A DNA stretch of 64,000 bases from an uncultured Candidatus Saccharibacteria bacterium (GTDB lineage Bacteria > Patescibacteriota > Saccharimonadia > Saccharimonadales > VXPC01). The notes under the pieces were generated by a model. That model did no database searches. It was given only the letters and a program-made list of their open reading frames with translations, and was not told the origin of the DNA. Position 1 is the stretch's first letter, and each line of letters opens with the position of its first letter. This document shows, piece by piece, positions 15,132 to 57,786 of this stretch. The position numbers and the translations under genes are program-made. The DNA lies in contig CAZHOS010000001.1 of NCBI GenBank assembly GCA_964534605.1, positions 39,198 through 103,197 of the forward strand, read 5' to 3'.

Positions 15132-15163
15132 ACCAAAATAAAGAGTCCCAAATGGGACTCTTT
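15132..15163. terminator. palindromic hairpin flanked by A/T runs (bidirectional terminator-like)
   Basis: AAAATAAAGAGTCCC-AAAT-GGGACTCTTTATTTT: perfect 10-bp stem with A-run and T-run flanks, immediately 3' of the tRNA fragment. Confidence 0.5.
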
Positions 15164-15167
15164 ATTT

Positions 15168-15288
15168 TGGTGCCGTGGAAAGGACTTGCCCACGTCCCGC
15201 GGGCCCGAAACTTCGTCTTTGCAAACAAGTTTGCAAGAGAAGGTTTCCTTGCGATATGCCACTGGCATATCTCACCTTCACGCATTAT
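15168..15288 (-). other. partial duplicate of the tRNA-Leu 3' third (variable-arm end, T-arm, acceptor 3' strand, CCA) interrupted by an 85-nt structured insert
   Basis: Minus strand reads AATGCGTGAAGGT-[GAGATATGCCAGTGGCATATCGCAAGGAAACCTTCTCTTGCAAACTTGTTTGCAAAGACGAAGTTTCGGGCCCGCGGGACGTGGG]-CAAGTCCTTTCCACGGCACCA. Outside the insert it is identical to the 3' part of tRNA-Leu at 15348..15432. No 5' half (acceptor 5', D-arm, anticodon arm) is present. Confidence 0.6.
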
Positions 15289-15317
15289 GGCTCGGTTCAA
15301 CCCCTTTCCTAGTCAAA

Positions 15318-15347
15318 ATAAAAAGCCCCATATGGGGCTATTTATTT
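15318..15347 (-). terminator. rho-independent terminator immediately 3' of tRNA-Leu
   Basis: Minus strand AAATAAATAGCCCCATATGGGGCTTTTTATTTTG; GCCCCA-TAT-GGGGC stem followed by a T-run. Confidence 0.5.
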
Positions 15348-15432
15348 TGGTGCCGTGGAAAGGACTTGAACCTTCACGCATTGCTGCACTAGTTCCTAAG
15401 ACTAGCGTGTCTACCAATTCCACCACCACGGC
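15348..15432 (-). tRNA. tRNA-Leu (anticodon UAG), CCA encoded
   Basis: Minus strand GCCGTGGTGGTGGAATTGGTAGACACGCTAGTCTTAGGAACTAGTGCAGCAATGCGTGAAGGTTCAAGTCCTTTCCACGGCACCA (85 nt). Has 7-bp acceptor stem GCCGTGG/CCACGGC, D-stem GTG/CAC and anticodon stem CTAGT/ACTAG. Anticodon loop CUUAGGA gives anticodon UAG; long variable arm; T-loop TTCAAGT. Confidence 0.9.
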
Positions 15433-23268: not shown

Positions 23269-24234
23269 GTGATAAGAAGACTATCCGGCGGCTTTGCAAT
23301 AGGGCTCGTTATGGGGCTGGCTATATTTGCCTTCCTTAACCCCTATTCGTTCCCGGACTGGTGGACACTACGGTCGTACACGCCGTCTGCAGAAATAGAG
23401 GCGTTAGCCAAAAACAGCTTCTTTACGAGCGAAGCCGAGCGCCTATTCTATGTGCACGATCCAAAGCTGCAATCATCCGAGGAATTTATGTCTAACTGCC
23501 CTGTCGAGGAGACTGTCGTGTTAGGTTGCTACGACGGTAGAGGCATCTATATATTCGAGGTAGAAGAAGAGCAGCTAGATGGCATAGAGGAAGTAACGGC
23601 AGCTCATGAAATGCTGCATGCAGCCTACGCCAGATTAAGCAACAGCGACCAACAAGAGGTTGTCGAGTGGTTAAATATCACATTCGACCAGGTATCTGAC
23701 CAGCGCATCAGAGACGTTGTGGCGACCTACGAGTCACAGGGACAAGACGTTATCGATAACGAACTCCACTCTATCCTTGCAACAGAGCTAGAAGAGTTGC
23801 CAGAATTCCTAGAAGACTACTATTCGCAGTATTTTACAGATAGATCGCAGGTCGTTGCCCTCAGCCAGCAATATGAGGCAGTGTTTACGGCCCTTAAAGA
23901 TCAGGTAGACAACCTAGATATGCAGTTATCAGATCTATCGGCCAGCATCCGCCTACTGGAAGCTTCACTAGAGACACAGGGCGATACTATCAATACCGAG
24001 CGTGAGCGTATCAGTACGCTGCTAGACAACGATGATATCCCAGCCTACAACCAGGCGATTCCAGGCTTTAACCAATCTATCGACGCCTACAACCAGGACT
24101 TCGCACAACTAGAAGTCTTGATCGCAGAGTTTAACGACCTCGTCAAACAGCGCAACAGTATTGCAACCGAGCAAAATAATCTTGTCGAGAGCATTGATAG
24201 TAACTTTAGCCAGCAAGAAGGCTCTGGTGGCTAA
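23269..24234 (+). CDS. membrane-anchored protein with HExxH zinc-metallopeptidase-like motif and C-terminal coiled coil
   Basis: N-terminal TM (FAIGLVMGLAIFAFL), then AAHEMLHAAY, then a Q/E/L-rich heptad-like C-terminal half. The 3' end overlaps the radA start region. Confidence 0.5.
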   Translation: MIRRLSGGFAIGLVMGLAIFAFLNPYSFPDWWTLRSYTPSAEIEALAKNSFFTSEAERLFYVHDPKLQSSEEFMSNCPVEETVVLGCYDGRGIYIFEVEEEQLDGIEEVTAAHEMLHAAYARLSNSDQQEVVEWLNITFDQVSDQRIRDVVATYESQGQDVIDNELHSILATELEELPEFLEDYYSQYFTDRSQVVALSQQYEAVFTALKDQVDNLDMQLSDLSASIRLLEASLETQGDTINTERERISTLLDNDDIPAYNQAIPGFNQSIDAYNQDFAQLEVLIAEFNDLVKQRNSIATEQNNLVESIDSNFSQQEGSGG

Positions 24235-25555
24235 ATCTACCGCCAGCTACCTATGCAGCTCGTGTGGGGCCAAGAGCAATCAATGGAGCGGTAAATGCTT
24301 CGAGTGTGGAGATTGGGGCAGCCTAGAGGCTGACCAAGCAGCAACGCTGAATGTTAGTGCCGGTTCCGGTAAACAAGTAAGCGGTAAAAAGATCCAAGCC
24401 TCCCCTATTAGCAAAAAGACAAAGGGTATCGATAGCCACCGCTTAAGCACTGGCACCAAAGAAGTTGACCAAGTACTAGGGGGAGGCGTTGTGCAGGGCT
24501 CTGTTGTACTGCTAGCAGGACAGCCAGGAGCAGGTAAAAGCACTTTGCTGCTGCAAGTAGCTGCATATCTGGGCAAAAGCAGCAAAACAATCTATATTAG
24601 CGGCGAGGAGTCAGAGCGCCAGGTAAGCTCCCGCGCCAATCGTCTCAAGCTAGGTGCCACAGACCTGCAGTTGGCTAGCAACAATTCAGCCGACGACATC
24701 GCCGCTACTATCGCCAGCGGTGATTATGACGCCGTTATTGTTGACTCTATACAAACCATCAATACTAGCAGCTCTAGCGGTGTACAGGGTGGTGTATCGC
24801 AGATAGTCAACTCCACCCATATGCTAATCAATGCTGCCAAGCAAAGTGACACGGCTCTAATCCTCGTTGGTCACGTCACCAAAGAAGGCAACATCGCCGG
24901 CCCCAAGCTGCTCGAGCACCTTGTCGATGTTGTGCTACAGCTAGAGGGTGATAAGTTTGTAGGGTTCAAGCTGCTGCGAGGGCGCAAGAACCGCTACGGC
25001 TCTGTCGACGAAGTAGCCGTTATGGAAATGGGAGAGCTAGGCATGCATCCTGTCGATAACCCTTCGGCCGCTTTGCTAGAGGAGCGTCAACTAACAGACG
25101 GCTCGGTAATATTTGCGGCCATGGAGGGTACCAAGCCACTACTTGTAGAGATCCAGGCGCTCACTAACAAATCAGCCTTCGGTTACCCCAAACGCACAGC
25201 TGTGGGCTTTAGCCAAAATCGACTCAACTTGATAATCGCAATACTCGAGAAACGCACCAAACTATCGCTAAGTGACATAGACATCTATATATCAGTTAGC
25301 GGCGGCCTAACTATTACAGAGCCTGCAGCAGACCTAGCCGTAGCCATGGCCATCGCTAGCAGCGCCAAAGGGCTGGCGCTACCCAAAGACGCCGCCGTCT
25401 ACGGCGAAGTTGGCCTGGGCGGCGAGATCCGCCGAGTAATTTTTGCCGACAAGCGGGCGAAAGAAGCTAAGAAGGTCGGCTTCAAGACCGTGATTGGCCC
25501 AGCTAGTACCAAAAAACTAGATTTAAAGTCACTCCTTAATACTTACCTAAAGTAG
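24227..25555 (+). CDS. radA: DNA repair protein RadA (Sms)
   Basis: C4 zinc finger CSSCGAKSNQWSGKCFECGDWGS, Walker A GQPGAGKSTLLLQ, KNRYG signature and a Lon-like C-terminal domain. Start placed at GTG 24227 (VAKSTASYLC...) with AAGAAGG SD 6 nt upstream. The ORF is also open from the ATG at 24161. Confidence 0.88.
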   Translation: MAKSTASYLCSSCGAKSNQWSGKCFECGDWGSLEADQAATLNVSAGSGKQVSGKKIQASPISKKTKGIDSHRLSTGTKEVDQVLGGGVVQGSVVLLAGQPGAGKSTLLLQVAAYLGKSSKTIYISGEESERQVSSRANRLKLGATDLQLASNNSADDIAATIASGDYDAVIVDSIQTINTSSSSGVQGGVSQIVNSTHMLINAAKQSDTALILVGHVTKEGNIAGPKLLEHLVDVVLQLEGDKFVGFKLLRGRKNRYGSVDEVAVMEMGELGMHPVDNPSAALLEERQLTDGSVIFAAMEGTKPLLVEIQALTNKSAFGYPKRTAVGFSQNRLNLIIAILEKRTKLSLSDIDIYISVSGGLTITEPAADLAVAMAIASSAKGLALPKDAAVYGEVGLGGEIRRVIFADKRAKEAKKVGFKTVIGPASTKKLDLKSLLNTYLK

Positions 25556-25603
25556 GTTCATGCCTCCTTTTTATGCGGTCAATGGCACAGCCTTTATATA
25601 ACC

Positions 25604-25860
25604 CTTCCAATACTTTTTCTCAAAAAGTATCACAAGAACACCCCAGCGGTAATCAGAAGACAGACTAGCAAAAACCTTTACCTACAATCAGCAGCCTGCG
25701 GGACTCCCTCTGGTCGGTCTGAGTTAGCTAAAAGCCAACAACCAGACTGATCCTCGCCTGAATGACTGCAGGCAAGAGTTTTAGGCTAATCTGTTCTGAT
25801 TAATGCTGGGAATAGAGGTAAAGCCAGCTCGCTGGCTTTAGAGTTAGTGATTGCGGCTAC
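25604..25860 (+). repeat. copy 1 of a roughly 260-nt conserved intergenic element (candidate structured RNA)
   Basis: Shares extended similarity with 37731..37990 (+) and 46320..46665 (-). Contains palindrome ATACTTTTT-CTC-AAAAAGTAT, block CACCCCAGCGGTAATCA, block CAATCAGCAGCCTGCGGGACTCCCTCTGGTCGGTCTGAG, and hairpin AAGCCAGC-TCG-GCTGGCTT. Begins 49 nt after the radA stop. Confidence 0.6.
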
Positions 25861-25902
25861 GCCGCTCTGCTCGTTACACACCTTTAGTCTGCTGATACAT
25901 TT

Positions 25903-25931
25903 TTGACATTATTTGTCTTTTCTGGTAAAAT
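25903..25931 (+). promoter_or_regulatory. sigma70-like promoter for ORF 26084
   Basis: TTGACA - 17 nt - TAAAAT, followed by a roughly 145-nt hairpin-rich leader. Confidence 0.5.
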
Positions 25932-26083
25932 AATTTTATCAACTTTAGGTTGAGTACATCACATTTTTGCTGATTTTAAGGCAGGATTAGAGCTCATTTT
26001 AAGTGGACTGTAATCCTGTCTTAAAAAGACAGTGGGCAAATCGCCCTTCTGATGTAAATCAGAGTTAGGGCAAGGAGCCCATT

Positions 26084-26479
26084 ATGAAGACTGAGATATA
26101 TGTATCTCGGAAATTGTCCGGTGACTTGAAGTCTAGGACCGGCCGAGAATTAGCGGCGCATATTGAGTTCATGCACTCCGTGTGTGCTGCACTCCCAAGT
26201 CTGCTTGAAAAAGCTGGCGTACCGTATGACACGGACGATGGCTACTCGGTAGAGTGGCCAGCATGGCCAGTGGTTCGTGTTGGTCCGATTATCGCTGGGA
26301 TTCACGTTGAAGACGGTGAACCCGTCATTGACGTGCAGCACAAAGATCTGGCCTTGCCTTTCAGCGATGAACAGCTCGCAGTCCATACGCTCGGAAGGTT
26401 AGAGCTAGGCAGTGCTCAGTTGAGCACTCTAGAGCTAGGAGTCAACGCTATGGTTGGTCGAGCCTCCTCTCTGCAATAG
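26084..26479 (+). CDS. hypothetical protein
   Basis: 131 aa, GGAG-type SD (CAAGGAGCCCATTATG). No recognisable motif. Confidence 0.45.
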   Translation: MKTEIYVSRKLSGDLKSRTGRELAAHIEFMHSVCAALPSLLEKAGVPYDTDDGYSVEWPAWPVVRVGPIIAGIHVEDGEPVIDVQHKDLALPFSDEQLAVHTLGRLELGSAQLSTLELGVNAMVGRASSLQ

Positions 26480-26620
26480 CGAACGTGATGTAGGGGCCCC
26501 TTCGGGGGTCTCTTTGTCTTTTGGGCTACCAAAAAACTAGCGACTTCGCTACCGGCCTTCTTAACGCCGATAATTTATCTCATGATGCCTAAGCTCTACT
26601 AGCCTACTAAATGGACTGAA

Positions 26621-29095
26621 CTACTCGACAATAGATTCCACTGTGGGGGTTTTGTCTTTTAGGCTCAGATCTACGACGCTGCCCTCTTCTATTTCACCTG
26701 ATAGTAAGCTCTCAGCAATGCGATCCTCTAGCTCTTCTTGGATGAGGCGGCGGAGTGGGCGGACGCCGTTCTTGGCGTCGTAACCGGTACTCACGAGCCA
26801 TTTTTTAAGCTGCGTACTGGTCTTCATGCCCAGCTTGCGGTTAAGCAGTCTGCGCGCCAGATCGTCTAGTTGAATGTTAACAATCTTGCCGACATCTTTG
26901 CGCGACAGCGCACGGAAGACAATCGTTTTGTCCAACCTGTTTAACAGCTCTGGCTTCATGAAGGATTTTAGCTCGTCGCGAACTTTGCGCTCGTTCTCGC
27001 GGTGTAATTTGTCAACTTGCTTTTGATCTGTGTCGCTCTTGGCAGAAAAGCCCAAGGAGACTTCTTTTTGTAGCTCTTTAGCGCCTAGGTTACTAGTTAG
27101 GATAACTATCGTATTGCTAAAGTTAACAGTGCGACCCTTGGCGTCAGTTAGCACTCCGTCCTCTAACAGCTGCAGCAGCATATTAAATACATCTGGGTGA
27201 GCCTTCTCGACCTCGTCAAACAGTACCAGGCTGTAGGGTTGGCGCCGGATCTTTTCGGTCAACTGGCCACTCTCGTCGTAGCCTACGTAGCCGGCTGGGG
27301 CGCCCAGCAGACGCGAAACAGTGTGCCTCTCGCCAAACTCTGACATATCTATCTTTATTAAAGCGTCGTCGTTGCCGTAAAACTCTTTGGCTAGCGAGCG
27401 GGCAAGCTCTGTCTTACCAACGCCTGTTGGCCCCAAAAAGAGGAAGCTGCCTATCGGGCGCTTGGCATCGGATATGCCGCTGCGGCTACGTCTAATAGCA
27501 CGCGACACAGCCTCGACAGCTTCTTGTTGCCCAATAATATGCTTGCCCAGACGCTTTTCGAGGCTTAGCAGAGCCTTGGCCTCGGACTTGACGACCTGCA
27601 TAACTGGCACGCCTGTCCAAATAGATATAACCTTGGCAACCTCCTCGGAATCTAGCTTTAGCTTTTGTTTGACACCGCCTTGTTTGCGGAGGTCTGCCTG
27701 AGTACTTTCTAACTGGGCGATCTTCTGTTTGTAGGCAGCAGCTTTCTCGTAGTCTTCGTCCTCGACAGCGTCGTCCATACGCACTTTTAGCATCTGAATA
27801 TCCTTTAGCACAGCTCGCGCCTTGGGGTCTACTTTACCCTTGCTAACTCGCAGATGGGCACAAGCTTCGTCTAGTAGGTCTATGGCCTTGTCAGGCATAA
27901 ATCGGTCATTAATGTAGCGATCGGCTAGATTTACGGTGTCCTGTAATACTTCGTCATCAATACTTAGGCCATGGAAATCCTCGTATTTGTGCTTTAGTCC
28001 GCGCAGTACTGCTAGCGTCTCTTGCTTGGTTGTCTCTGGCACTATTATCGGCTGGAAACGGCGCTCGAGTGCCGCGTCTTTCTCGATATGTTTGCCGTAC
28101 TCGTCGGTGGTGGTGGCGCCGATAACCTGGATCTTACCACGCGCCAATGCAGGCTTGAGGATATTACCAGCATCTATTGCTCCCTCAGCAGCACCAGCGC
28201 CCACTATCAGGTGTAGCTCGTCTATAAATACTATGGTGTCTTTGCTATCACTAAGCTCGCTCATGACTTTCTTGAGGCGATCCTCGAACTCACCACGGTA
28301 TTTGGTGCCAGCAATCATGCCAGGTAGGTCTAACATAACAATCCGCTTCTCCAGCAAGCTGTCAGGCACATCGTCGTTGACAATACGCTGGGCAAGTCCC
28401 TCGACTATAGCTGTTTTACCTACACCAGGTTCACCGATGAGGACTGGGTTGTTCTTGCTACGGCGATTAAGGATGGTCACCATGCGCTTGACCTGTACGT
28501 CACGCCCAACAACTGGGTCTAGCTTACCCTGCTTGGCCATATCGGTCAGATCGGTGCCAAAGTAATCTAGGGCAGACTTGCCTTTCTTGGACGTCTTGGA
28601 CTTCCCAATACGGGCAGACGAACCGTCGAGACCTTGTTTGCCGAGCAAGCTCTCCATAGCGAGATGCAGCTTGTGCAGGTCGACATTCATGTCGCGTAAC
28701 AACACCGTTGCTCGGGCGTTCTTTTGGGCCAGGATACTATAGAGAATGTGCTCGGTGCCACACATGTCTTGGTTAAATTCCTGGGCAACGTCCCAGCTCA
28801 TACGCAAGGTCAGCTTGGCTGTTTCGGACAGACCTTTACTCTGGGCATTGAGCACCATTGTCTTAGGGGCTAAATTAAGGGCTAGCCGGGCGCGGTCATA
28901 ACTAATCCCAGCATCGCTAAGCATCTTGGCACCAAGGGAAGGCTGCTGGCGTAGTACACCCAATAAAATATGCTCGGTACCTACGTATGCTGCGCCTAGC
29001 TCTGCAGATATAACGTCTGCATGCTTGAGACTCTTGAGCGCATTGTCGCTAAAGTTGGTTAAGAATTCTTCGAATCCGGAGTTATCTGATGCCAT
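26621..29095 (-). CDS. clpC: ATP-dependent Clp protease ATP-binding subunit ClpC (class III AAA+ chaperone)
   Basis: 824 aa: Clp-N repeats, two AAA+ modules (GEPGVGKT and GPTGVGKT Walker A) and a UVR-like linker ([19 protein letters not shown]). Length fits ClpC rather than ClpB. Confidence 0.9.
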
Positions 29096-30650: not shown

Positions 30651-32684
30651 TCAAGTCTTCAGAGCAAGGCCATCACGCAAAAGTAATGCGTTTTGGTTAG
30701 AGTCGCGCCCCAAGAAATCACGCACAAGTACATCTGGATCGTACTCGTCGCCACGTGCCAAAACCTTGTCTCTGTACTGGGCACCGATGCTTGGGTCAAG
30801 CACTTCAGGTGCATTGGCGAATCTAGTATACATATCTGCTTCTATTGATTCTGCCCACTTGTAAGAGTAGTAGCCAGCTGCATACCCCCCAGCAAATATG
30901 TGACCAAATACATGTATTAACTGTGAGTCGGAAGGTTCTTTGGCCGGGCTAATGTCTGTACTTACTTTTTGATAAAAGTCTGTGACTGTGATGTCTGTAG
31001 TGTGGAGCTCTCGATGTAGTCGTAGGTCTGCCTCACTTAGAATAGATTGCCTTATAGTGCCGCTACATACTCTAAAATTACGCGCCTGCTTTAGCTTAGC
31101 AATAAGGTCTTTAGGTATTGGGTCGCCTGTGGCATGATGCTTGCCCATCATCGCTAGGACTTCGTCCTCCCAAACAAAATTCTCCATAATCTGTGATGGA
31201 GCCTCTACAAAGTCCCACTTGGTGGCCATCATGCTTTGCTCTTTTAGCTCTGTAGAGCTGAATGCTAGATGCATAAAATGACCAAACTCGTGCCAGATCG
31301 TCTCAACGTCGCGCATATTAAGTAGCGCCGGGCTAGACTTCGTAGGCTTGGGCATATTGCCGCAGACTAATCCCTGGTGGGGCTGGTCATAATTCCCACC
31401 TGCACGGTTAGCAACATAGAGCTGATTCATCCAGGCGCCTGGCTTTTTGCCCGGGCGTGCAAACCAGTCACACCATACGACAGCAATATGTCGCTCTTTA
31501 ACGTCAAAGATGTCGTAAACTTTGACATCATGATGCCATTTTTGCTGAACTTTATTCTCTTTAAAGCTGACCCCGTATAGCTTGCTAAGCGCCTCAAACA
31601 TGCCTGAGAGCACCTGGTTGATAGGTAGGTAGGGCTTTACATCGTCTTCTTCTACATCAAAAAGGCTTTTTTTGAACAAGTTTGCATAGTAAGCACCACT
31701 TGAGAAGACCTCGTAGCTAGGTACCGTCGCCTGATCATCCTGCTCATACTCCTGGATGAACCGTTCAAGGTCTGCGTATTCTTTGGCAGCCCCCTCCTGA
31801 TAAAGCTTGCGCATATCCTGTATGAATTGCAAGGCAATATCACCAGTTTTGGCCATTTTATTGGCAGTATTTAGATCGGCATAGTCCTTGAACCCAAGCT
31901 TTATAGCTAGCTGATGGCGTAGTTTGAGGATCTCTGATGCTATAGGCTCATTCACGCCATCGTTCCGCTCATTTACCATTTTTGAGTATGCGTCACGTGT
32001 TGTTTTTATATTAGCCTTAGACAGTACTTCAATCGATAAAGGCTGATTAAAGACAAGTGCATAACCCTTACGTCCGTCATCTTTTGCCTGTTTAGCAGCA
32101 TCCTTGATGATGTCTTTTGTAAGTCCGTCTAGGTCTTCAACGTTCTCAAGATACAGCCTTGCATCATCGTTCTTTTTGGTAACATTCTGTGAGTAAATTG
32201 TACTGAGTTCCGACAAACGTTGATTAATCTTTTTTATCTCATCTCGATCTACCTGAGGCAAAAGTATGCCACCTCGTTCGTAACTTTCTAATAAATCTTT
32301 TAGGTACCTTTTTTGGGCTGCAGTGTGATTTTCTTTATTTTGGGTGGCAACAGCCTGCAACATGTCGTAGATTCTCTTATCCGCACTCAGTTCGGTGTAA
32401 AATTCGGATATTAACTTAGTACACTCGAGGTCTACACTACTCCATGGCTCGCCCAACACACTCTCTAGGTGCGAAACTACACCGTACACGTACCCTGCTT
32501 CGTCCGACATGTCACTATGAGCTTGCACTGTATTTGCGTAATCTCTGTCTTGCTTAGCAATACTTAATATCGCTTCTAGGCGCTCCTTGGCCTCTGCGAT
32601 ATGTGCTTTTAGGGCTGGTACGGCGTCTTCTGGCTTATACTCGTCGAAGCAAAACTGGTTAATCGGTCGCTGAAAACTATTCAT
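30651..32684 (-). CDS. M3A-family zinc metallo-oligopeptidase (oligopeptidase A / peptidyl-dipeptidase Dcp-like)
   Basis: HEFGHFMH zinc site and about 680 aa of M3 fold. Start placed at the ATG at 32684 (MNSFQRPINQ...). The longer ORF to 32831 adds an unlikely N-terminus. Confidence 0.8.
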   Translation of the reverse strand: MNSFQRPINQFCFDEYKPEDAVPALKAHIAEAKERLEAILSIAKQDRDYANTVQAHSDMSDEAGYVYGVVSHLESVLGEPWSSVDLECTKLISEFYTELSADKRIYDMLQAVATQNKENHTAAQKRYLKDLLESYERGGILLPQVDRDEIKKINQRLSELSTIYSQNVTKKNDDARLYLENVEDLDGLTKDIIKDAAKQAKDDGRKGYALVFNQPLSIEVLSKANIKTTRDAYSKMVNERNDGVNEPIASEILKLRHQLAIKLGFKDYADLNTANKMAKTGDIALQFIQDMRKLYQEGAAKEYADLERFIQEYEQDDQATVPSYEVFSSGAYYANLFKKSLFDVEEDDVKPYLPINQVLSGMFEALSKLYGVSFKENKVQQKWHHDVKVYDIFDVKERHIAVVWCDWFARPGKKPGAWMNQLYVANRAGGNYDQPHQGLVCGNMPKPTKSSPALLNMRDVETIWHEFGHFMHLAFSSTELKEQSMMATKWDFVEAPSQIMENFVWEDEVLAMMGKHHATGDPIPKDLIAKLKQARNFRVCSGTIRQSILSEADLRLHRELHTTDITVTDFYQKVSTDISPAKEPSDSQLIHVFGHIFAGGYAAGYYSYKWAESIEADMYTRFANAPEVLDPSIGAQYRDKVLARGDEYDPDVLVRDFLGRDSNQNALLLRDGLALKT

Positions 32685-32824
32685 AAATATCAAACCAGTA
32701 TACAGGATAGATACACGCAATAACATTTTTTGATTGTGGACAAATTCTAGACACCAGACAGGACTTAATCCGTGCCTAAAAACAGGTAACCAATAATCAT
32801 ATAGCCCTACGCTACAAAGGTGGA

Positions 32825-32848
32825 AACCCACCGATTTCTCGGTGGGTT
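32825..32848 (-). terminator. hairpin 3' of membrane-protein paralog 1 (conserved between the paralog units)
   Basis: AACCCACCG-ATTTCTC-GGTGGGTT. The same CCGATTTCTCGG core occurs after the paralog at 41184..41205. Confidence 0.4.
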
Positions 32849-37681: not shown

Positions 37682-37730
37682 TTTTTTATTTATAATAGCA
37701 GACATTAATCAAAGGCTTCCGAAGTACCCT

Positions 37731-37990
37731 CCTTCAATACTTTTTCTCAAAAAGTATTCCAAAAACACCCCAGCGGTAATCAAAAAACAAACTAGCAAAA
37801 ACCCTACAGAAACAATCAGCAGCCTGCGGGACTCCCTCTGGTCGGTCTGAGAGGCAGCTAGAGCATGCCTCAACCAGACTAATCCTCACCTGTCTGACTG
37901 TTCTGCAGGTTTTTAGACTAATCTGTTTTGATTAATGCTGGGAGGGGCAGAAAAGCCAGCAAGCTGGCTTTAAACTTAGTGATGGCGGCT
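37731..37990 (+). repeat. copy 2 of the roughly 260-nt conserved intergenic element
   Basis: Co-linear with 25604..25860 with the same blocks. Hairpin AAGCCAGC-AAG-GCTGGCTT has the same stem and a different loop. The hairpin after GGTCGGTCTGAG is replaced by GAGGCA-GCTAGAGCA-TGCCTC. Starts 50 nt after the SpoU stop. Confidence 0.6.
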
Positions 37991-38049
37991 TGGCCACTCC
38001 TATTGCTTCTTTCGTCTTTATTCTTACCTCTTTCTCTGGCGCAACGAGC

Positions 38050-38078
38050 TTGCCTTAGATGTATATTTGTTGTATAAT
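38050..38078 (+). promoter_or_regulatory. sigma70-like promoter for ORF 38126
   Basis: TTGCCT - 17 nt - TATAAT. Confidence 0.5.
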
Positions 38079-38125
38079 AATTATTGATCGCAAAAATTTT
38101 GTGATTGAACTACCGAAGGGACATC

Positions 38126-38479
38126 ATGAGCTTCACGATTGAAATTCTTGAGCAAAGCTATCTGATCGACGACGATGGGAATGTTAGTCAAACGCTTGAG
38201 GGGGACGATCTAGTCCGTAATCTTGCCAATGGCAGAGGGCATGATTACCTCCATAAAGAGAAGCAGTGCACTGGGCGGGCGCTGAACCAAAGATCAAACA
38301 TCGTTGGAGGCAGCAAAACACTCAGAAATGGCCAAGTAGAGGTCTACTCGATCGTCCATATTAGGGACAAGGTTATCTCGATGTCTGTGACCATACCGGC
38401 AGAGAGCACCCTTTCAGATATCGAGAGCATGCTTTTGCTGATTAAGCAGAGAAGCAGGGCAGCCATCGAAATGTGGTAG
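38126..38479 (+). CDS. hypothetical protein
   Basis: 117 aa from the ATG at 38126 (GAAGGGA SD). The table ORF begins at a TTG at 38105. No recognisable domain. Confidence 0.45.
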   Translation: MSFTIEILEQSYLIDDDGNVSQTLEGDDLVRNLANGRGHDYLHKEKQCTGRALNQRSNIVGGSKTLRNGQVEVYSIVHIRDKVISMSVTIPAESTLSDIESMLLLIKQRSRAAIEMW

Positions 38480-38490
38480 ATTGCAATGAA

Positions 38491-38514
38491 GGCCCGGCGC
38501 GAAAGCGCCGGGTC
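38491..38514 (+). terminator. GC-rich hairpin terminator after ORF 38126
   Basis: GGCCCGGCGC-GAAA-GCGCCGGGTC followed by an A/T-rich tract. Confidence 0.5.
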
Positions 38515-38769
38515 AATAATTTATAAGCTGGATTCAGCTATGCCATTAGACTTCGGGATTTTAGAGCGAACACAAATCATATTATGGTTAGACCGCTTGG
38601 CTTTGAGCTAGAATCGAATTTTGGTGCGGAAGCTTGGCGGTGGCTGTGCAAGTGGCACTGCCCCGACAAGAACCGTAAACCGAAATATCGTATTCTAGCC
38701 AAAGACAGAAAACCGGCCAGTGCAACTAGCTATGCTAGTTGGCAGGGCCGGCTTTCTGGGCCAAGTGGT

Positions 38770-39486
38770 TTAGCTGCGCTTTTTGGCTTTGCGCACATTA
38801 CCCTTATTACGTGAAGCAATCACTTCGTTACCACCAAGTACGTACCACATTGCACCAACTGCACCACCACCGATTATCCACCAGTACCATGGAGCTGTAT
38901 CGTCATCGACCTCTGCGTCTTCTATCTCTGTTTGGATAGAATCTATAACGGATAGTTCGTCGGAGTTGTCATCGGGCTGACTATCTGTATCGTCTCCGCC
39001 TACTAGCTCGGAGCTATCTACAAACTCTGGGGCCGTTACTGGACGTACATCGGCTAGATCTTCGTCGATAGGAGCAAATGCTTCCCAGCGAGCAAGAGCA
39101 TCTGCCGATAAGTCACCTGTCCCCGCAATTGCGTCGCTAAGAACACTAGTTGGGATTATAACTTCGTCACCTATGTCTAGCATAAATGCACCTAGCTCCT
39201 GAACTGCGCAGGTTTCGGCAGCAATGGTAGTAGCTGTGTCTAGCTGCACACCTTGTTCCTCAGCGACAAGCTGTAAGCTTCGGCGAACAAGTATGGTTAG
39301 GTTATCGCCAGCTTGAGCTTCGTAGACAAAGTCTTCGCTAGATACACCTGACACCTCCGTCGTTACTTCTGCTTCTTCGGCCTCCTGTGCGGCAACGTTG
39401 CCAGAATTAACTAAGCCAAAGGCAAAGATTGCAGTTAATAATATCCCGACCCTGAATATGTAGTTGTAACGAGCTGTTGCGCTCAT
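38770..39486 (-). CDS. hypothetical acidic exported protein with N-terminal signal/TM, C-terminal TM anchor and a possible LysM-like segment
   Basis: Start at ATG 39486 with GGAGGG SD. N-terminus MSATARYNYIFRVGILLTAIFAFGLVN; C-terminus WYWWIIGGGAVGAMWYVLGG plus a basic tail. The stretch VYEAQAGDNLTILVRRSL...DEVIIP is weakly LysM-like. Confidence 0.5.
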   Translation of the reverse strand: MSATARYNYIFRVGILLTAIFAFGLVNSGNVAAQEAEEAEVTTEVSGVSSEDFVYEAQAGDNLTILVRRSLQLVAEEQGVQLDTATTIAAETCAVQELGAFMLDIGDEVIIPTSVLSDAIAGTGDLSADALARWEAFAPIDEDLADVRPVTAPEFVDSSELVGGDDTDSQPDDNSDELSVIDSIQTEIEDAEVDDDTAPWYWWIIGGGAVGAMWYVLGGNEVIASRNKGNVRKAKKRS

Positions 39487-39674
39487 AGATAACCCTCCAG
39501 TTTTTTTCTCAACTGTTACTTTACTGTAATCGTGCCCTATCCTCAAGTTTATGTTATTTAAGCATAAGCGTTTTGACCACTGTTTATGTATGTTGCTGCT
39601 GCGTTGTGCAATTATCAACTTAGGTTGCTTAAGGCTTTAGGCCACTTATGTTTTTTGGTACAATCTAAGTAATC

Positions 39675-40628
39675 ATGAGCACAAACAAAACGCCTGCTGG
39701 GCACACCAAACATCGCTTTGGACACCTAATGATCACATTCGGTATGTTTATGTGGATAGCGCTATCCGTCGCAGTTAACTGGGCGCCAGGATCTGCACAA
39801 GCAGTCTCGATAGGGTCTGTACTAAGTCTGAGCAACTCCCAGCGAACAGCAAACGGCGTTGCAGCCCTAACAGCCAACAGTACGTTGAACGCTGCGGCAC
39901 AAGCAAAAGCCCAACATATGCTGAATAACGATTACTGGGCACACAATGCACCGGATGGGACAACATGGTTTAGCTTTATTGTTGCCCAAGGCTACAGCTA
40001 CCAGACAGCAGGCGAGAATCTAGCGCTAACATCGTCCCCCGGCGGCTCCGCATCCGACGTTGTTACCGGATGGATGAATAGTCCTGGCCATAGAGCAAAT
40101 TTGTTAAATAGCGCCTTCACAGAGGTTGGACACGGCGTAGTGTTTGCTCCAACAGGTGTGGGCGAGCACGAGTTCGCAAGCTACTTGGTAGTTGCTATGT
40201 ATGCCCTGCCTAACACCCCAACACCACCTCCGCCGCCACCAGAACCAGATCCGCCTGCACCCGATACCAATCCCGAACCAGAACCGGAGCCGGAGACAGA
40301 GCCTACCACCGCTCCTGCACCACCAACCTCTACCCCCATAGTCGAAGAACCCGAGGAACCAGAAGCAGAAGCAGAAGAGCCAGAGCAAATTGCCCAGAGC
40401 GAACCCATCCCAGAGAATCAGTCAGTCCCAGCAGATGATGAGATACCTACCACGCCAGTTGTACCTGTCGCCAGCGTCAACCCAACCACAGACAGACTGA
40501 TAGCACCAGAGTTGGCGATACTGCTTGCCACTGTTGCTGCGGGTATCATTGTTGCGGGTATTTACTTGGAGGTTCGGTGGGTTAAGAAGCATGGACACAT
40601 ACAACACATTCACTTCCCCCACCTCTAA
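39675..40628 (+). CDS. CAP/SCP/PR1-like (YkwD-type) extracellular domain protein with Pro/Glu-rich linker and C-terminal membrane anchor
   Basis: N-terminal signal/TM, then YWAHNAPDGTTWF...GENLAL...GWMNSPGHRANLLNSAFTEVGHGV (CAP domain motifs), a PPPPPEPDPPAPDTNPEPEPEPETEP linker and a C-terminal TM. Confidence 0.8.
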   Translation: MSTNKTPAGHTKHRFGHLMITFGMFMWIALSVAVNWAPGSAQAVSIGSVLSLSNSQRTANGVAALTANSTLNAAAQAKAQHMLNNDYWAHNAPDGTTWFSFIVAQGYSYQTAGENLALTSSPGGSASDVVTGWMNSPGHRANLLNSAFTEVGHGVVFAPTGVGEHEFASYLVVAMYALPNTPTPPPPPPEPDPPAPDTNPEPEPEPETEPTTAPAPPTSTPIVEEPEEPEAEAEEPEQIAQSEPIPENQSVPADDEIPTTPVVPVASVNPTTDRLIAPELAILLATVAAGIIVAGIYLEVRWVKKHGHIQHIHFPHL

Positions 40629-40741
40629 AACTCCCTGGCCCAGAGTCAGCACCTGCCAAAGAGTCAAACTCTTTGTACCGTGCTGACTCCGTCTTGGCAC
40701 ATCTTGGATATTTTTACTGTGGGGATTAAGGGAGGAGTAGC

Positions 40742-40936
40742 ATGTCTACACCAACCCTTAATTGTCCTCGTAAAAATTCCAAGCTGCACTCAAGCCAGGC
40801 AGTTTTAGCGCCTCAGTACCGTCGATTGAATAGAGGAGATGTATGCCCTGAAGTTTGCTTCAGGCTCAAAGCCAAGCACACTACAGGCAACGACTCGATA
40901 AAGCTGGTTGGATATTTTTATCTTTATGGCACGTAG
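40742..40936 (+). CDS. possible small Cys-containing basic protein (low confidence)
   Basis: 64-aa ORF preceded by a strong AAGGGAGGAG SD 4 nt upstream. Lies in a 550-bp intergenic region; no homology recognised. Confidence 0.2.
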   Translation: MSTPTLNCPRKNSKLHSSQAVLAPQYRRLNRGDVCPEVCFRLKAKHTTGNDSIKLVGYFYLYGT

Positions 40937-41171
40937 GACGCTTGGTGGTGAGTCGTACCACCTTCACTCTTCCGGTCAAGCCAGAGGCTTGACTCTTACG
41001 GAGTGCCATATGCACACCTTCCTTGCAGAACCGCCGGATAAAATTCAATTCTAACGCCTTGTCTGAAGTGTTTAGATAACCGACAGAATCTTCCACACTA
41101 GCACTCTTTGGCTGTTGCTCGAGCTGGTACTTAGAGGGTAGTTTTGGTCTTTGCTACCCCTGATACGTCTT

Positions 41172-41205
41172 CATAAAAGTAAAGACCGCCGATTTCTCGG
41201 CGGTC
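41172..41205 (-). terminator. rho-independent terminator after membrane-protein paralog 2
   Basis: Minus strand GACCGCCG-AGAAATC-GGCGGTC followed by TTTACTTTTAT. Shares the CCGATTTCTCGG core with the hairpin at 32825..32848. Confidence 0.45.
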
Positions 41206-41229
41206 TCATCACATGATCCCATTAGCCTG

Positions 41230-41646
41230 TCAAAGCTTAGTTGCGAAAAGGCCGCTCCTCAGAGAGCATTCGACTCTTCCATCCTCAGAAACAATCTTCT
41301 GCTGAGACATTATGGCTCTTTGCCAATGCCCCTTACCTGGCAGTGTGTACTCGGTCATTGCGTATTCATAGGCCAGACCGCAGTATTTCTCTTCTAGCCG
41401 TTTAAAGCTAGAGTAGAACAACCATATAGCCATGGAAAAGAGCAGTACCAACGTCCCCTTGAGGCTCAGGTCAAAGCTTGCCAGACCTAACTCAAAGGCA
41501 AATAGGACCTTTGATGAGGGCAAGAATAGGACGCTAGAGGCTAAGCAGGTAGCCCCAAAAATACCCAGGACAGTGAGATAGTTTGCCTTCTGCCGGTAGT
41601 CCCTGAGGCAGATCAATTCTGGTGTGATGTTCTTCGTGTTTTCCAT
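41230..41646 (-). CDS. small 2-TM membrane protein, paralog 2 (MENTKNITPEL...)
   Basis: Start at ATG 41646 with AAGGAGGT SD 5 nt upstream; 138 aa. The first 30 nt of CDS, the RBS, 5'UTR and -10 box resemble ORF 32871..33293. Confidence 0.55.
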   Translation of the reverse strand: MENTKNITPELICLRDYRQKANYLTVLGIFGATCLASSVLFLPSSKVLFAFELGLASFDLSLKGTLVLLFSMAIWLFYSSFKRLEEKYCGLAYEYAMTEYTLPGKGHWQRAIMSQQKIVSEDGRVECSLRSGLFATKL

Positions 41647-41753
41647 GGTGACCTCCTTGGGGTCTCGACAATAAGAAACGAACGAATAATATATTATATC
41701 ATTTTTCTGCAATAAAGATATACTTTCAGCTATTTTTAGTGTATAAAATAGGC

Positions 41754-42494
41754 ATGAGAGAGATAAAAGCACTCTATCGGAATACGCGCCTAGATAACTA
41801 TTTGGACACTAAAAACGCCATACGCTTAGGGCAACGATTCTTAGAGCTAACTAGACACGAGCCAGACATAATCTGTCTATAAGAAGTCGTAAGAGCAGAT
41901 GGAGAGATAGACCCCATTACAAAGATATCTGGCGACCTAGGCTACGATACATGCTACCAACTACAAACAGAAATGAGACAACGACCAGATGCACACCTAG
42001 GAATGCTAATGTTATCTAGGATCCCCTTTATAGATATGAATGTCTATAAGCTAGCTCATGCTGATGCTGATGAGGTAGGTGTATCTACGTACTTACAGGA
42101 AATGCACCTCGCAATAGATGGAGATAAGCTGACGGTTTCAAACAACCACTGGTGTCATATGTGGCCAGGGACAAAAGCTACCAGAACTGAGAACAAAACA
42201 AACTTTCGTAGACACCTTCTCAAAGGGCACACACCAGTTAGCTATGTTTTAGGAGGTGATCTAAATACGTGGCAAGGAGAACAGATAATTAGAAACCTGG
42301 GCAAAGTATACGACATGATAACAGGCAGCTTCATAAATCCAACCTACCGCTATAACGGAAAGCTACTGGCACCATTTCTGAATGTTGACTATGTTGGAGT
42401 GCCAAAAGCTGCGGACATAAGCATCACTGATTTTGTGCAGCTAGACAGAACCCCGTCAGACCACTGCCCTCTTCTAGCAACCATCGGCCTCTAA
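41754..42494 (+). pseudogene. endonuclease/exonuclease/phosphatase (EEP, DNase I-like) family gene interrupted by an in-frame TAA
   Basis: ATG 41754 encodes MREIKALYRNTRLDNYLDTKNAIRLGQRFLELTRHEPDIICL, then TAA at 41880-41882 exactly where the conserved Q of the EEP motif PDIICLQE belongs. The same frame then continues EVVRADGEID... into ORF 41973..42494, which carries GGDLNTW and SDHCPLLATI. Confidence 0.6.
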
Positions 42495-42553
42495 GCGATT
42501 GGGCCTAGTTCGACTTAATGCACTCTTTACAGCAGTTTAAAAATATATGAATA

Positions 42554-46183: not shown

Positions 46184-46319
46184 TAATACGTTTTTTCCCT
46201 CAAATTACTATGCTTAATTATACGCTAGAAAGTAATGCTTCTGGTTGTAAAAACTACCCACCAGGGTGGTTTTTCTGTATACCTCAAACTCAAACAAAAC
46301 TTATTATCTTCAGTGGGGC

Positions 46320-46665
46320 TAGGATTAGTCTGTTTTCTGAGGACTAGTCTGGTAGATAGCTTTTAGCTATCTCAGACCGAACAACCACAGTGTTGGCTCC
46401 CTGACTTTAGGCTCAGAGTAGAAATAGCTAGGCAAGATGAGTGCTTGTCTGGCTTGTGTCTGAGTCCATGACATCAGACCAAGACAGCAAGTACTCACTG
46501 TTATCAGCTTATTTCTGGTCTGAGATCAAAGAGAGGGTGTTAATGCTGTGGTACTAGGAGTCCCTCAGGCTGCTGATTGTAGGCGAGAGTTTTTGCTAGT
46601 CTGTCTTTTGGTTACCGCTGGGGTGTTTTTGAGATACTTTTTGGGAAAAAGTATTGGAGGAGGTT
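46320..46665 (-). repeat. copy 3 (reverse orientation, with a roughly 150-170-nt internal insertion) of the conserved intergenic element
   Basis: Reverse complement reads CCTCCAATACTTTTTCCCAAAAAGTATCTCAAAAACACCCCAGCGGTAACCAAAAGACAGACTAGCAAAAAC...CAATCAGCAGCCTGAGGGACTCC-[insert]-GGTTGTTCGGTCTGAG-ATAGC-TAAAA-GCTAT-CTACCAGACTAGTCC. It lacks the 3' AAGCCAGC hairpin. Starts 46 nt after the stop of ORF 46711..47004 and ends about 80 nt before the dnaE ATG. Confidence 0.55.
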
Positions 46666-46710
46666 TATAAAGGCGAAGCCTTTGTTTCATGAAAATTACT
46701 TAAAGAAACA

Positions 46711-57197: not shown

Positions 57198-57233
57198 ACC
57201 AGTCAAATTTCACGATCGTGAAATTTGACTGGT
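57198..57233. promoter_or_regulatory. 36-bp perfect palindrome overlapping the 3' end of the regulator gene, 45 bp upstream of the pfkB start
   Basis: ACCAGTCAAATTTCACGATCGTGAAATTTGACTGGT; its 32-bp core is identical to the palindrome at 57751..57782. Confidence 0.6.
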
Positions 57234-57746: not shown

Positions 57747-57786
57747 TTTACAGTCAAATTTCACGATCGTGAAATTTGACTGTAAA
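57747..57786. promoter_or_regulatory. 40-bp perfect palindrome abutting the regulator start codon
   Basis: TTTACAGTCAAATTTCACGATCGTGAAATTTGACTGTAAA; shares the 32-bp core with 57198..57233 but has different palindromic extensions. Confidence 0.6.

What the first reader, a model, noticed from the sequence alone, without database searches (positions are those of the whole stretch)
25604..25860. Three-copy family of a roughly 260-nt conserved intergenic element with covarying hairpins (candidate novel structured RNA)
Three intergenic regions share a co-linear non-coding sequence: 25604-25860 (+), 37731-37990 (+) and 46320-46665 (-, reverse orientation).

(a) Conserved features present in all or most copies:
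- a 5' perfect palindrome ATACTTTTT-CTC/CCC-AAAAAGTAT
- block CAAAAACACCCCAGCGGTAA(T/C)CA...AGACTAGCAAAAAC
- block ACAATCAGCAGCCTG(C/A)GGGACTCC...GGTCGGTCTGAG
- a direct repeat CAGACT(G/A)ATCCT
- in copies 1 and 2, hairpin AAGCCAGC-NNN-GCTGGCTT with identical stem but different loops (TCG vs AAG)

(b) Covariation at the hairpin immediately after GGTCGGTCTGAG:
- copy 1: TTAGC-TAAAA-GCCAA
- copy 3: ATAGC-TAAAA-GCTAT
- copy 2: GAGGCA-GCTAGAGCA-TGCCTC
The three stem sequences differ but pairing is retained, the classic signature of selection on RNA structure rather than on sequence.

(c) Positional regularity: every copy begins 46-50 nt after the stop codon of a co-oriented upstream gene, just past that gene's terminator-like hairpin. 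Every copy ends 80-220 nt before an independent sigma70-like promoter of the next gene (TTGACA-17-TAAAAT, TTGCCT-17-TATAAT, and a TATAAT before dnaE).

(d) Copies 1 and 3 have a TTTATA(T)AACC box, 17 nt after a TT(A/T)(T/C)(G/A)(C/T) hexamer, right at their 5' edge. The elements could therefore be independently transcribed sRNA genes.

(e) There are no ORFs, no terminal inverted repeats and no target-site duplications, so this is not a MITE, IS element or CRISPR array. No T-box, RNase P, SRP, tmRNA or 6S signatures are present.

Nucleotide identity between copies 1 and 2 is roughly 75-85% by eye, not computed. I do not recognise this as any described RNA family.
Basis: seen in the sequence. 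Interest (0 to 1): 0.75.

Follow-up and report, generated by a model that had tools for sequence, protein, structure and literature searches.

The report
Dispersed long-hairpin intergenic repeat in Saccharibacteria
Three spacers between housekeeping genes of an uncultured Saccharibacteria (TM7) genome carry copies of a 300-430-nt non-coding element that folds into one long imperfect hairpin, is missing from those sites in the nearest relatives, and looks more like a new small dispersed palindromic repeat than a proven new RNA gene.

Summary
The repeat family is real. Three copies lie at about 25580-25875 (+), 37709-38007 (+) and 46684-46249 (-). Copies 1 and 2 are 81% identical; copy 3 matches copy 1 at 88% over its 5' half. 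No Rfam family matches, no ORF is conserved, and nothing similar turned up in the public collections scanned.

The core is a roughly 170-nt imperfect inverted repeat with 34-nt arms, closed by pairing of the element's ends and flanked by small hairpins. Copy 3 carries a 166-nt extra hairpin and a degraded 3' arm.

All three sites are empty in the closest relatives (65-73% protein identity). Breakpoints in public short-read assemblies imply at least one more copy-3-like copy elsewhere.

Differences between copies 1 and 2 break fewer base pairs than random placement would. However, three-way RNAalifold gives no net covariation support.

Best reading: a lineage-specific, non-autonomous palindromic repeat of the MITE/ERIC/bcr1 kind, wedged between a stop codon and the next promoter and probably co-transcribed. 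A true structured RNA is not excluded (about 0.2-0.25).

The parts
25580..25875 (+). Copy 1, full extent of homology (296 nt), between the radA stop (25555) and the promoter of ORF 26084-26479
   Evidence: blastn, nhmmer and MAFFT. Promoter TTGACA-17-TAAAAT at 25903-25931.
25610..25630 (+). Copy 1 hairpin 2: perfect 9-bp palindrome ATACTTTTT-CTC-AAAAAGTAT. The stem is invariant in all three copies; the same feature lies at 37737-37757 and 46634-46654(-).
25642..25675 (+). Copy 1, 5' arm of the long hairpin (CCCAGCGGTAATCAGAAGACAGACTAGCAAAAAC)
   Evidence: RNA folds, self-inverted blastn hit, palindrome alignment
25684..25723 (+). 40-nt block identical in copies 1 and 2 (ACAATCAGCAGCCTGCGGGACTCCCTCTGGTCGGTCTGAG). 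Public short-read contigs break exactly here.
25723..25739 (+). Copy 1 apex hairpin (G-TTAGC-TAAAA-GCCAA-C, with one A.C mismatch). This is the variable tip of the long hairpin.
25778..25810 (+). Copy 1, 3' arm of the long hairpin (GTTTTAGGCTAATCTGTTCTGATTAATGCTGGG)
25820..25839 (+). Copy 1 hairpin 4, a terminator-like hairpin AAAGCCAG-CTCG-CTGGCTTT followed by TTT. A small GC hairpin follows at 25853-25865.
37709..38007 (+). Copy 2, full extent (299 nt), between the SpoU-methylase stop (37681) and promoter TTGCCT-17-TATAAT (38050-38078)
37769..37942 (+). Copy 2 long hairpin: arms 37769-37802 and 37909-37942, apex hairpin GAGGCA-GCTAGAGCA-TGCCTC at 37851-37871
37952..37971 (+). Copy 2 hairpin 4 (AAAGCCAG-CAAG-CTGGCTTT)
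46249..46684 (-). Copy 3, full extent (436 nt), between the DUF5665-gene stop (46711) and the conserved dnaE upstream region (TTTTTACA...CGTATAAT...GAGGG)
46391..46556 (-). 166-nt insert specific to the copy-3 type. It is itself a long imperfect hairpin (MFE -69 kcal/mol for 46384-46552) and branches off between GGGACTCC and CTGTGGT...CGGTCTGAG.
46355..46371 (-). Copy 3 apex hairpin (G-ATAGC-TAAAA-GCTAT-C). Relative to copy 1 it has one T-A to A-U swap and one repaired A.C mismatch.
46282..46311 (-). Copy 3 diverged 3' arm (about 60% identical to copies 1 and 2); the outer stem is largely lost
46249..46274 (-). Copy 3 positional equivalent of hairpin 4 (AAAAACCACCC-TGG-TGGGTAGTTTTT). It has a different stem sequence and is a good bidirectional intrinsic-terminator shape.

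Best explanation
This is a lineage-specific family of small, non-coding, dispersed palindromic repeats. It belongs to the same broad class as bacterial MITE-like elements such as ERIC, bcr1, RUP and Correia.

Each copy is a closed, self-complementary unit. The parts, in order, are:
- a small GC hairpin;
- an invariant 9-bp A/T hairpin;
- a roughly 170-nt imperfect hairpin with 34-nt arms and a variable tip;
- a terminator-like hairpin.

Shown: copies sit in the only tolerated slot of a compact genome, 25-28 nt after a stop codon and 28-45 nt before the next gene's promoter. The same slots are empty in the nearest relatives.

Inferred:
- The copies were inserted (mechanism unknown). They diverged to 80-90% identity, exchanged or re-copied segments, and acquired insertion and deletion variants such as copy 3.
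- Because no terminator separates them from the upstream gene, they are probably transcribed as its 3' UTR. The transcript would end at the element's own terminal hairpin.
- The long hairpin could then affect termination or mRNA stability, as described for ERIC and REP. Alternatively it could be a neutral passenger.
- The structure-preserving bias of substitutions may reflect selection on a single-stranded form (RNA or DNA) or template-switch 'quasipalindrome correction'.
For: - Three dispersed copies lie between unrelated housekeeping genes: radA/ORF131, spoU/ORF124 and DUF5665/dnaE.
- The core is a long inverted repeat, with z-scores of -4 to -8 on both strands.
- All three sites are empty in relatives. 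DUF5665-dnaE is separated by 74 nt, with the conserved dnaE upstream motif directly after the stop. The SpoU stop overlaps a convergent CAP gene. The RadA stop overlaps a convergent PBP gene.
- There is no element and no comparable palindrome in about 137 kb of loci from relatives.
- There is a size variant with an internal 166-nt insertion and a degraded arm.
- Short-read contigs from two samples break at 30-mers inside copy 3 that copies 1 and 2 do not share. This implies a further near-identical copy-3-type segment elsewhere.
- No Rfam family matches and no ORF is conserved.
- The window genome shows local inversions and ORFan genes next to copies 1 and 2.
- Published repeats of this class sit at 3' ends of genes, are co-transcribed, reach about 400 bp and can show compensatory changes (PMC3184786).
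Against: - No target-site duplication was found.
- The inverted-repeat arms are about 60 nt inside the conserved ends, not terminal.
- No transposase, integrase, RT or TnpB was found among the window ORFs scanned.
- Only 3 copies were seen, plus at least 1 inferred. Exact-block scans of genome, metagenome and viral collections found no other member, so mobility is inferred and not shown.
- Substitutions between copies 1 and 2 break only 9-10 predicted pairs on the antisense strand, against 21.5-22.1 +/- 2.7 expected. A functional RNA would also produce this.
- All three copies have the same orientation relative to the flanking genes.
Confidence: 0.55

Rival explanations
1. It is a true multi-copy structured non-coding RNA, acting in cis or in trans. 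Its fold would comprise a closing helix, a three-way junction with the invariant A/T hairpin, and a long helix with a variable apical domain, all maintained by selection. The coding strand might be the one antisense to the flanking genes.
For: - Folding is far more stable than for shuffled sequence.
- Substitutions between copies 1 and 2 avoid breaking pairs. On the core antisense strand 9-10 pairs are broken against 21.5-22.1 +/- 2.7 expected, with 10 one-sided changes kept as G.U. On the sense strand 14-16 are broken against 21-24 expected.
- The apex hairpin, the terminal hairpin 4 and the closing helix keep their pairing with different sequences.
- Transition mismatches are G.U on the antisense strand 9:3 in copy 1 and 9:3 in the independent insert (binomial p about 0.01 for these two independent stems combined); copy 2, which shares ancestry with copy 1, gives 8:2. 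A control 5'-UTR hairpin shows 7:1 for its own sense strand.
- A 40-nt block is invariant between copies that are 19% diverged overall.
- No known family matches.
Against: - The three-way RNAalifold covariation term is unfavourable on both strands.
- About a quarter of the consensus pairs are broken in copy 3, yet its unpaired 5' arm is as conserved as in the other copies.
- The strand with the better structure is antisense to every neighbouring gene and would start at a terminator-like hairpin.
- The element is absent from the same loci in all relatives sampled and from every collection scanned.
- Three sequences give no statistical power.
- Quasipalindrome template switching gives the same 'compensatory' pattern without selection (established knowledge).
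Confidence: 0.25
2. It is a derivative of a single-strand-DNA transposon (an IS200/IS605-type 'PATE', possibly retaining an omega-RNA-like scaffold) or another element recombined as folded ssDNA. That would explain a strand-specific fold, small similar GC hairpins near both ends, and the absence of terminal inverted repeats and target duplications.
For: - There is no TSD.
- Small GC hairpins in direct orientation lie near both ends: GGC-ACA-GCC at 25584-25592 and GCGGC-TAC-GCCGC at 25853-25865.
- The wobble bias is strand-specific.
- The point where copies diverge is always right after GGTCTGAG, which could be a cleavage or recombination point.
Against: - No Y1 transposase, TnpB or IscB was found in the window.
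- No conserved tetranucleotide lies next to the left end.
- There is no Rfam hit to HEARO or other guide-RNA scaffolds.
- Orientation follows local transcription, not a single replication direction.
- The integron attC core sites (RYYYAAC/GTTRRRY) are absent by inspection, and the element is 2-3 times larger than an attC.
Confidence: 0.08
3. It is a repeated small-protein or type I toxin-antitoxin locus, with a short hydrophobic ORF on the antisense strand plus an overlapping regulatory RNA.
For: The antisense frame of copies 2 and 3 reads ...LLVCFLITAGVFLEYFL..., which resembles a transmembrane segment. Type I TA loci are known as repeated structured intergenic units (established knowledge).
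Against: - That frame is interrupted by a frameshift and a stop in copy 1.
- No frame has a start codon and stays open in all three copies.
- None of the small ORFs is a called gene in the protein collection.
- A search with the concatenated frames found nothing.
Confidence: 0.02

Closest known systems
ERIC / IRU (enterobacterial repetitive intergenic consensus) and Bacillus bcr1 repeats
   Same: Non-coding imperfect palindromes that fold into a long or cruciform hairpin. They sit in intergenic spacers, often just 3' of a gene, and are co-transcribed. Size variants arise by internal insertion or deletion, and bcr1 shows compensatory changes that keep the stem (PMC3184786).
   Different: There is no sequence relationship. 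This element is 2-3 times longer (296-436 nt against 127-155 nt), has extra side hairpins and has no flanking direct repeats. The host is a Saccharibacteria genome with very few copies seen. Transcription is not shown.
Classical bacterial MITEs (Correia/CREE, RUP, Nezha, MaeMITE)
   Same: Small non-autonomous repeats with inverted-repeat arms. They are dispersed, show presence/absence between related genomes, are associated with rearranged regions, and can carry terminators, promoters or protein-binding sites (PMC3184786, PMC11602168).
   Different: The defining TSD is absent. The inverted repeat is internal rather than terminal. No parent IS or transposase has been identified.
REP/BIME elements and their 3'-UTR stem-loop function
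   Same: The position directly downstream of stop codons and the potential to end or stabilise the upstream transcript.
   Different: REPs are 20-40-nt GC-rich palindromes mobilised by RAYT transposases. Here the unit is about 300 nt with A/T-rich arms, and no RAYT was seen.
Rfam structured RNAs shaped as long hairpins (6S RNA, HEARO/omega RNAs, others)
   Same: A long imperfect helix with internal loops, a size of about 200-300 nt and a variable apical region.
   Different: No Rfam model matches, even at E <= 10. The element is multi-copy, lineage-restricted and inserted at non-orthologous sites, with no associated protein gene.

Membership tests
MITE | Small (50-800 bp) element without a transposase gene or conserved ORF | tested here: met
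   Element size is 296-436 nt. No frame is open with a start codon in all copies.
MITE | Several dispersed copies in one genome | tested here: met
   Three copies lie at unrelated loci. At least one more is inferred from contig breakpoints. The total number is unknown.
MITE | Terminal inverted repeats of at least 10-15 bp | tested here: inconclusive
   The 34-nt inverted arms are real but lie about 60 nt inside the conserved ends. The ends themselves pair only through a short closing helix.
MITE | Target-site duplication of 2-10 bp flanking each copy | tested here: not met
   The best exact direct repeat near both ends is 4-5 nt at shifted offsets, which is chance level. A possible TA(A/G)TTTT pair at copy 3 exists only by eye.
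MITE | A related autonomous IS whose transposase recognises the same ends | not testable with these tools
   None was found in the 64-kb window. The plasmid and phage collections gave no hit.
MITE | Filled versus empty sites between related genomes | tested here: met
   All three sites are empty in relatives with 65-73% protein identity. No closer relatives exist in the databases.
ERIC/bcr1-type transcribed palindromic repeat | Imperfect palindrome folding into a long hairpin, with internal insertion or deletion variants | tested here: met
ERIC/bcr1-type transcribed palindromic repeat | Co-transcription with the neighbouring gene | not testable with these tools
   No expression data were available. 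The position, 25-28 nt after the stop with no intervening terminator, makes read-through likely.
ERIC/bcr1-type transcribed palindromic repeat | Sequence homology to the ERIC or bcr1 consensus | not tested
   No direct comparison with those consensus sequences was run. Homology is not expected across phyla.
Any Rfam RNA family (including 6S, HEARO, riboswitches, group I/II introns) | Covariance-model match at or near the gathering score | tested here: not met
   At gathering threshold only tRNA-Leu matched in the window. At E <= 10 there was nothing credible on any copy on either strand.
Structured RNA under selection (generic) | Statistically supported covariation | tested here: inconclusive
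   The pair-breaking deficit between copies 1 and 2 is significant against random relocation. The RNAalifold covariation term is only -2 to -4 kcal/mol with two copies and positive with three. Three to four sequences give no power.
Type I toxin-antitoxin repeat | Conserved short ORF for a hydrophobic peptide | tested here: not met
   The frame is broken in copy 1 and there are no matching proteins.
IS200/IS605 PATE / omega-RNA | Y1 transposase or TnpB/IscB partner, and a conserved target tetranucleotide at the left end | tested here: not met
   No such Pfam domains were found in the window and there is no common flank motif. The rest of the genome was not seen.
Integron attC site | R''/R' core sites (RYYYAAC ... 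GTTRRRY), 57-141 bp, in cassette arrays near intI | tested here: not met
   By inspection the core sites are absent. The element is 296-436 nt, lies between housekeeping genes, and no integrase was found in the window.

The most novel reading that the evidence does not exclude
The element is a previously undescribed, lineage-restricted structured RNA of Saccharibacteria, encoded on the strand antisense to the flanking genes. Its fold (closing helix, invariant A/T hairpin, roughly 170-nt helix with an exchangeable apical domain that can hold a 166-nt branch) would be kept by selection. It would act on neighbouring transcripts or as a scaffold for an unknown protein.
Probability: 0.2. Interest if true: 0.6.

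Novelty: new member of a known kind. Interest (0 to 1): 0.38.

Why it matters
Saccharibacteria have very small, gene-dense genomes in which spacers are usually under 100 nt. Elements of 300-430 nt that fill three of the four longest spacers in this window are therefore conspicuous. My literature searches found no description of a dispersed palindromic repeat in this group.

If the element is mobile or recombinogenic, it marks a source of the local inversions and ORFan insertions seen here. It also explains why short-read assemblies of this organism fragment at these points.

If the structure-preserving substitutions reflect selection, it would be a new RNA (or folded-ssDNA) element in an episymbiont lineage whose regulation is almost unknown.

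In either case it gives a concrete sequence and model with which to screen further TM7 genomes.

Tried and rejected
- Rfam at gathering and at E <= 10 on all three copies: nothing.
- Exact-block scans of public collections. Genome contigs gave only a chance hit inside a coding region. Two different blocks against metagenome contigs gave zero hits. Viral contigs gave one chance hit in a CDS. blastn in 'distant' mode against plasmids and phages gave nothing.
- Recovering further copies through spurious ORF calls. A 492-aa concatenate of all open frames found no protein. None of ten small ORFs is in the protein collection.
- Extending beyond the window through public contigs. The source contig (105,768 nt) is not shown, and the Logan contigs are only 1-6 kb. 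Their breakpoints proved informative instead.
- Coding or type I toxin hypothesis: rejected by the frame analysis.
- Homology between the two downstream ORFs (131 aa and 124 aa), which would have indicated a duplicated cassette: none. They also have no Pfam, PHROG or NCBIfam hits.
- Target-site duplications: none.
- Promoter inside or next to the element on either strand: only the downstream genes' promoters were found.
- Replication-strand explanation for orientation: copies 1 and 2 are opposite to copy 3 relative to the backbone gene direction, so it does not fit.
- A covariance model was not built. The element exceeds the practical model size, and nhmmer with --max already found only the known copies in the window plus 170 kb of loci.

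Full report
OBSERVATION. The three regions were read directly and compared. By blastn, copy 1 vs copy 2 is 80.7% identical over 270 nt (E 5e-66). Copy 1 vs copy 3 is 88% over 118 nt plus 84% over 45 nt. The 23-mer CAATCAGCAGCCTGCGGGACTCC occurs three times against 0 expected from shuffles. No further copy is in the window by word-7 blastn or by nhmmer --max profiles.

The real extents are larger than reported: 25580-25875 (+), 37709-38007 (+) and 46684-46249 (-). Each copy starts 25-28 nt after the stop codon of radA, a SpoU methylase gene or a DUF5665 gene. Each ends 28-45 nt before the next gene's promoter region. Those promoters are TTGACA-17-TAAAAT at 25903 and TTGCCT-17-TATAAT at 38050. 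For dnaE it is a TTTTTACA...CGTATAAT...GGAGGG motif conserved in relatives.

ANATOMY. Folding shows that the core of copies 1 and 2 is one long imperfect hairpin of about 170 nt. CCCAGCGGTAATCAGAAGACAGACTAGCAAAAAC pairs with GTTTTAGGCTAATCTGTTCTGATTAATGCTGGG, and blastn sees each copy match its own reverse complement.

Around this core are:
- a short closing helix between the CCTCC-like 5' segment and a GGAGG-like 3' segment;
- an invariant 9-bp A/T hairpin;
- a small GC hairpin at the 5' edge;
- a terminator-like hairpin at the 3' edge (hairpin 4).

Copy 3 keeps the 5' half at 87-88% identity. It carries a 166-nt insert (46391-46556) between GGGACTCC and CGGTCTGAG, and this insert is itself a long hairpin. 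Its 3' arm is homologous to copies 1 and 2 but only about 60% identical (nhmmer E 1e-6), so the outer stem is largely lost. Its hairpin 4 has a different stem sequence. The pentamer CAGAC/GTCTG occurs at 13.7 per kb in the elements against 2.6 per kb in the rest of the window.

WHAT IT IS NOT.
- Rfam finds only a tRNA-Leu in the window at gathering scores. It finds nothing credible on any copy at E <= 10.
- No reading frame is open with a start codon in all three copies. The transmembrane-looking antisense frame of copies 2 and 3 is frameshifted in copy 1. This excludes a small protein or type I toxin.
- The two ORFs downstream of copies 1 and 2 are unrelated to each other and match no family.
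- No transposase, integrase, reverse transcriptase, TnpB or Cas domain was found in any window ORF scanned.
- There are no target-site duplications.

COMPARATIVE EVIDENCE. The genome is a Saccharibacteria MAG contig of 105,768 nt with no close relatives in the databases. The best DnaE hit is 73% identical and the best RadA hit 69%. Gene order in those relatives is conserved enough to inspect all three sites.
- In L007, DUF5665 and dnaE are 74 nt apart. The conserved dnaE upstream motif starts 9 nt after the stop codon.
- The SpoU gene's end overlaps a convergent CAP-domain gene.
- RadA's end overlaps a convergent penicillin-binding-protein gene.

All three sites are therefore empty. The window genome also shows local inversions relative to the relatives: the 321-aa/RadA pair, the CAP gene and the M13 peptidase gene. 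It has ORFan genes next to copies 1 and 2.

Neither the element nor any comparable long palindrome occurs in about 137 kb of loci from relatives. Exact-block scans of one genome per GTDB species, of JGI metagenomes (two blocks) and of IMG/VR gave no true hit. blastn against plasmids and phages also gave none. The family appears confined to this lineage.

HIDDEN COPIES. Public short-read (Logan, k = 31) contigs of the same organism, from two samples, break inside the elements.
- L002 ends exactly at the first 30-mer of the 40-nt block that copies 1 and 2 share. L009 and L010 start inside that block. This is what a repeat produces in a de Bruijn graph.
- L017 and L018 both end at GCCTTTATAAACCTCCTCCAATACTTTTTC inside copy 3.
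- L019 starts with GGAGCCAACACTGTGGTTGTTCGGTCTGAG, which is the end of the insert plus GGTCTGAG.

Copies 1 and 2 contain neither of the last two 30-mers. The simplest inference is at least one more copy outside the window. That copy would share about 300 nt with copy 3, including the insert, and would diverge exactly where all copies diverge, at the apex hairpin. This is an inference; strain variation could mimic it.

STRUCTURE CONSERVATION. I took the MFE structure of copy 1 (or copy 2) and asked how many of its pairs the other copy's substitutions break. The null model relocated the same substitutions to random positions holding the same base.
- On the 246-251-nt core, the sense strand has 14-16 broken pairs against 21-24 expected.
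- The antisense strand has 9-10 broken against 21.5-22.1 +/- 2.7 expected. Ten one-sided changes are kept as G.U there, against one on the sense strand.

In a strand-neutral palindrome alignment, transition mismatches are G.U on the antisense strand 9:3 in copy 1, 8:2 in copy 2 and 9:3 in the unrelated copy-3 insert. A control hairpin in the 5' UTR of ORF 26084-26479 shows 7:1 for its own sense strand. The antisense strand also folds better in all copies: -124 vs -105, -115 vs -95 and -178 vs -131 kcal/mol, with z-scores of -7.6, -5.9 and -7.9 against -5.9, -4.1 and -5.3.

Against this:
- RNAalifold's covariation term is only -2 and -4.25 kcal/mol with two copies.
- It is unfavourable (+2.56 and +3.35) once copy 3 is included. 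About a quarter of the pairs are then broken in copy 3.
- Three sequences give no statistical power.
- Compensatory-looking changes are known in mobile repeats such as bcr1 (PMC3184786). They can also arise from template switching in quasipalindromes (established knowledge).

TRANSCRIPTION CONTEXT (inferred). No terminator lies between the upstream stop codons and the elements. Each element ends with a terminator-shaped hairpin just before the next promoter. The sense strand is therefore most likely transcribed as a 3' UTR. No promoter was found for an independent sense or antisense RNA. Context thus favours the sense strand while wobble statistics favour the antisense strand. The strand question is open.

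CONCLUSION. The best-supported reading (about 0.55) is a new, lineage-specific family of non-autonomous palindromic intergenic repeats of the MITE/ERIC/bcr1 kind. Such repeats are known to sit at 3' ends of genes, to be co-transcribed, to reach about 400 bp, to occur in reduced genomes and to accompany rearrangements (PMC3184786, PMC11602168).

It fails two classical MITE criteria: there is no TSD and the inverted repeats are not terminal. No mobilising enzyme is known. I therefore file it as 'works like' rather than as a proven member. A true structured RNA, possibly on the antisense strand, remains possible (about 0.2-0.25). An ssDNA-transposon derivative is a minor alternative (about 0.08). 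Interest is moderate: the feature is real, undescribed and unusually large for a TM7 genome, but its kind is familiar and its function is unproven.

Noticed in passing
window 57200-57231 and 57751-57782: A perfect 32-nt palindrome, CAGTCAAATTTCACGATCGTGAAATTTGACTG, occurs twice, 551 nt apart. The two copies bracket ORF 57210-57764 (-), which carries a PaaX_M (Cas2-like) domain typical of PaaX-type repressors. They may be operator sites or bidirectional terminators flanking a regulator gene.
   Followed up: partly
window 15134-15188 and 15314-15368, next to tRNA-Leu 15348-15432 (-): A 55-nt direct repeat (91% identical) contains a terminator hairpin plus the last 21 nt of tRNA-Leu, including CCA. 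The first copy is followed by about 140 nt that no tool calls as a tRNA. It could be an att-like duplication left by an integrative element, or a degraded or intron-containing second tRNA gene.
   Followed up: partly
window 25966-26036: A strong 70-nt hairpin lies in the 5' UTR of ORF 26084-26479, downstream of the TTGACA-17-TAAAAT promoter. It gives weak miRNA-like Rfam hits only because of its shape. Its G.U pairs lie on the sense strand 7:1.
   Followed up: partly
window 23269-26621, 30651-32831 and 38100-42500, compared with L007, L013 and L015: Relative to the nearest relatives, the 321-aa/RadA pair, the M13 peptidase gene and the CAP-domain gene are each locally inverted. Several ORFan genes (131, 124, 282, 173 and 180 aa) are present only here.
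   Followed up: partly
window 38595-38621 and 40851-40877: A 27-nt inverted repeat (81% complementary) brackets the segment holding the 282-aa ORF and the CAP gene. That CAP gene is inverted relative to relatives. This may be chance.
   Followed up: no
window 38105-38479: The ORF downstream of copy 2 (124 aa from TTG, 117 aa from ATG) is not on record as a called gene in the public collection and matches no family. The spacer between the SpoU gene and the next gene may therefore be about 1.1 kb of non-coding DNA.
   Followed up: partly
window 40743-40930: A possible unannotated small gene of about 60 aa, with several cysteines, lies behind a GGGAGGAG ribosome-binding site in the 600-nt spacer 40629-41229.
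   Followed up: no
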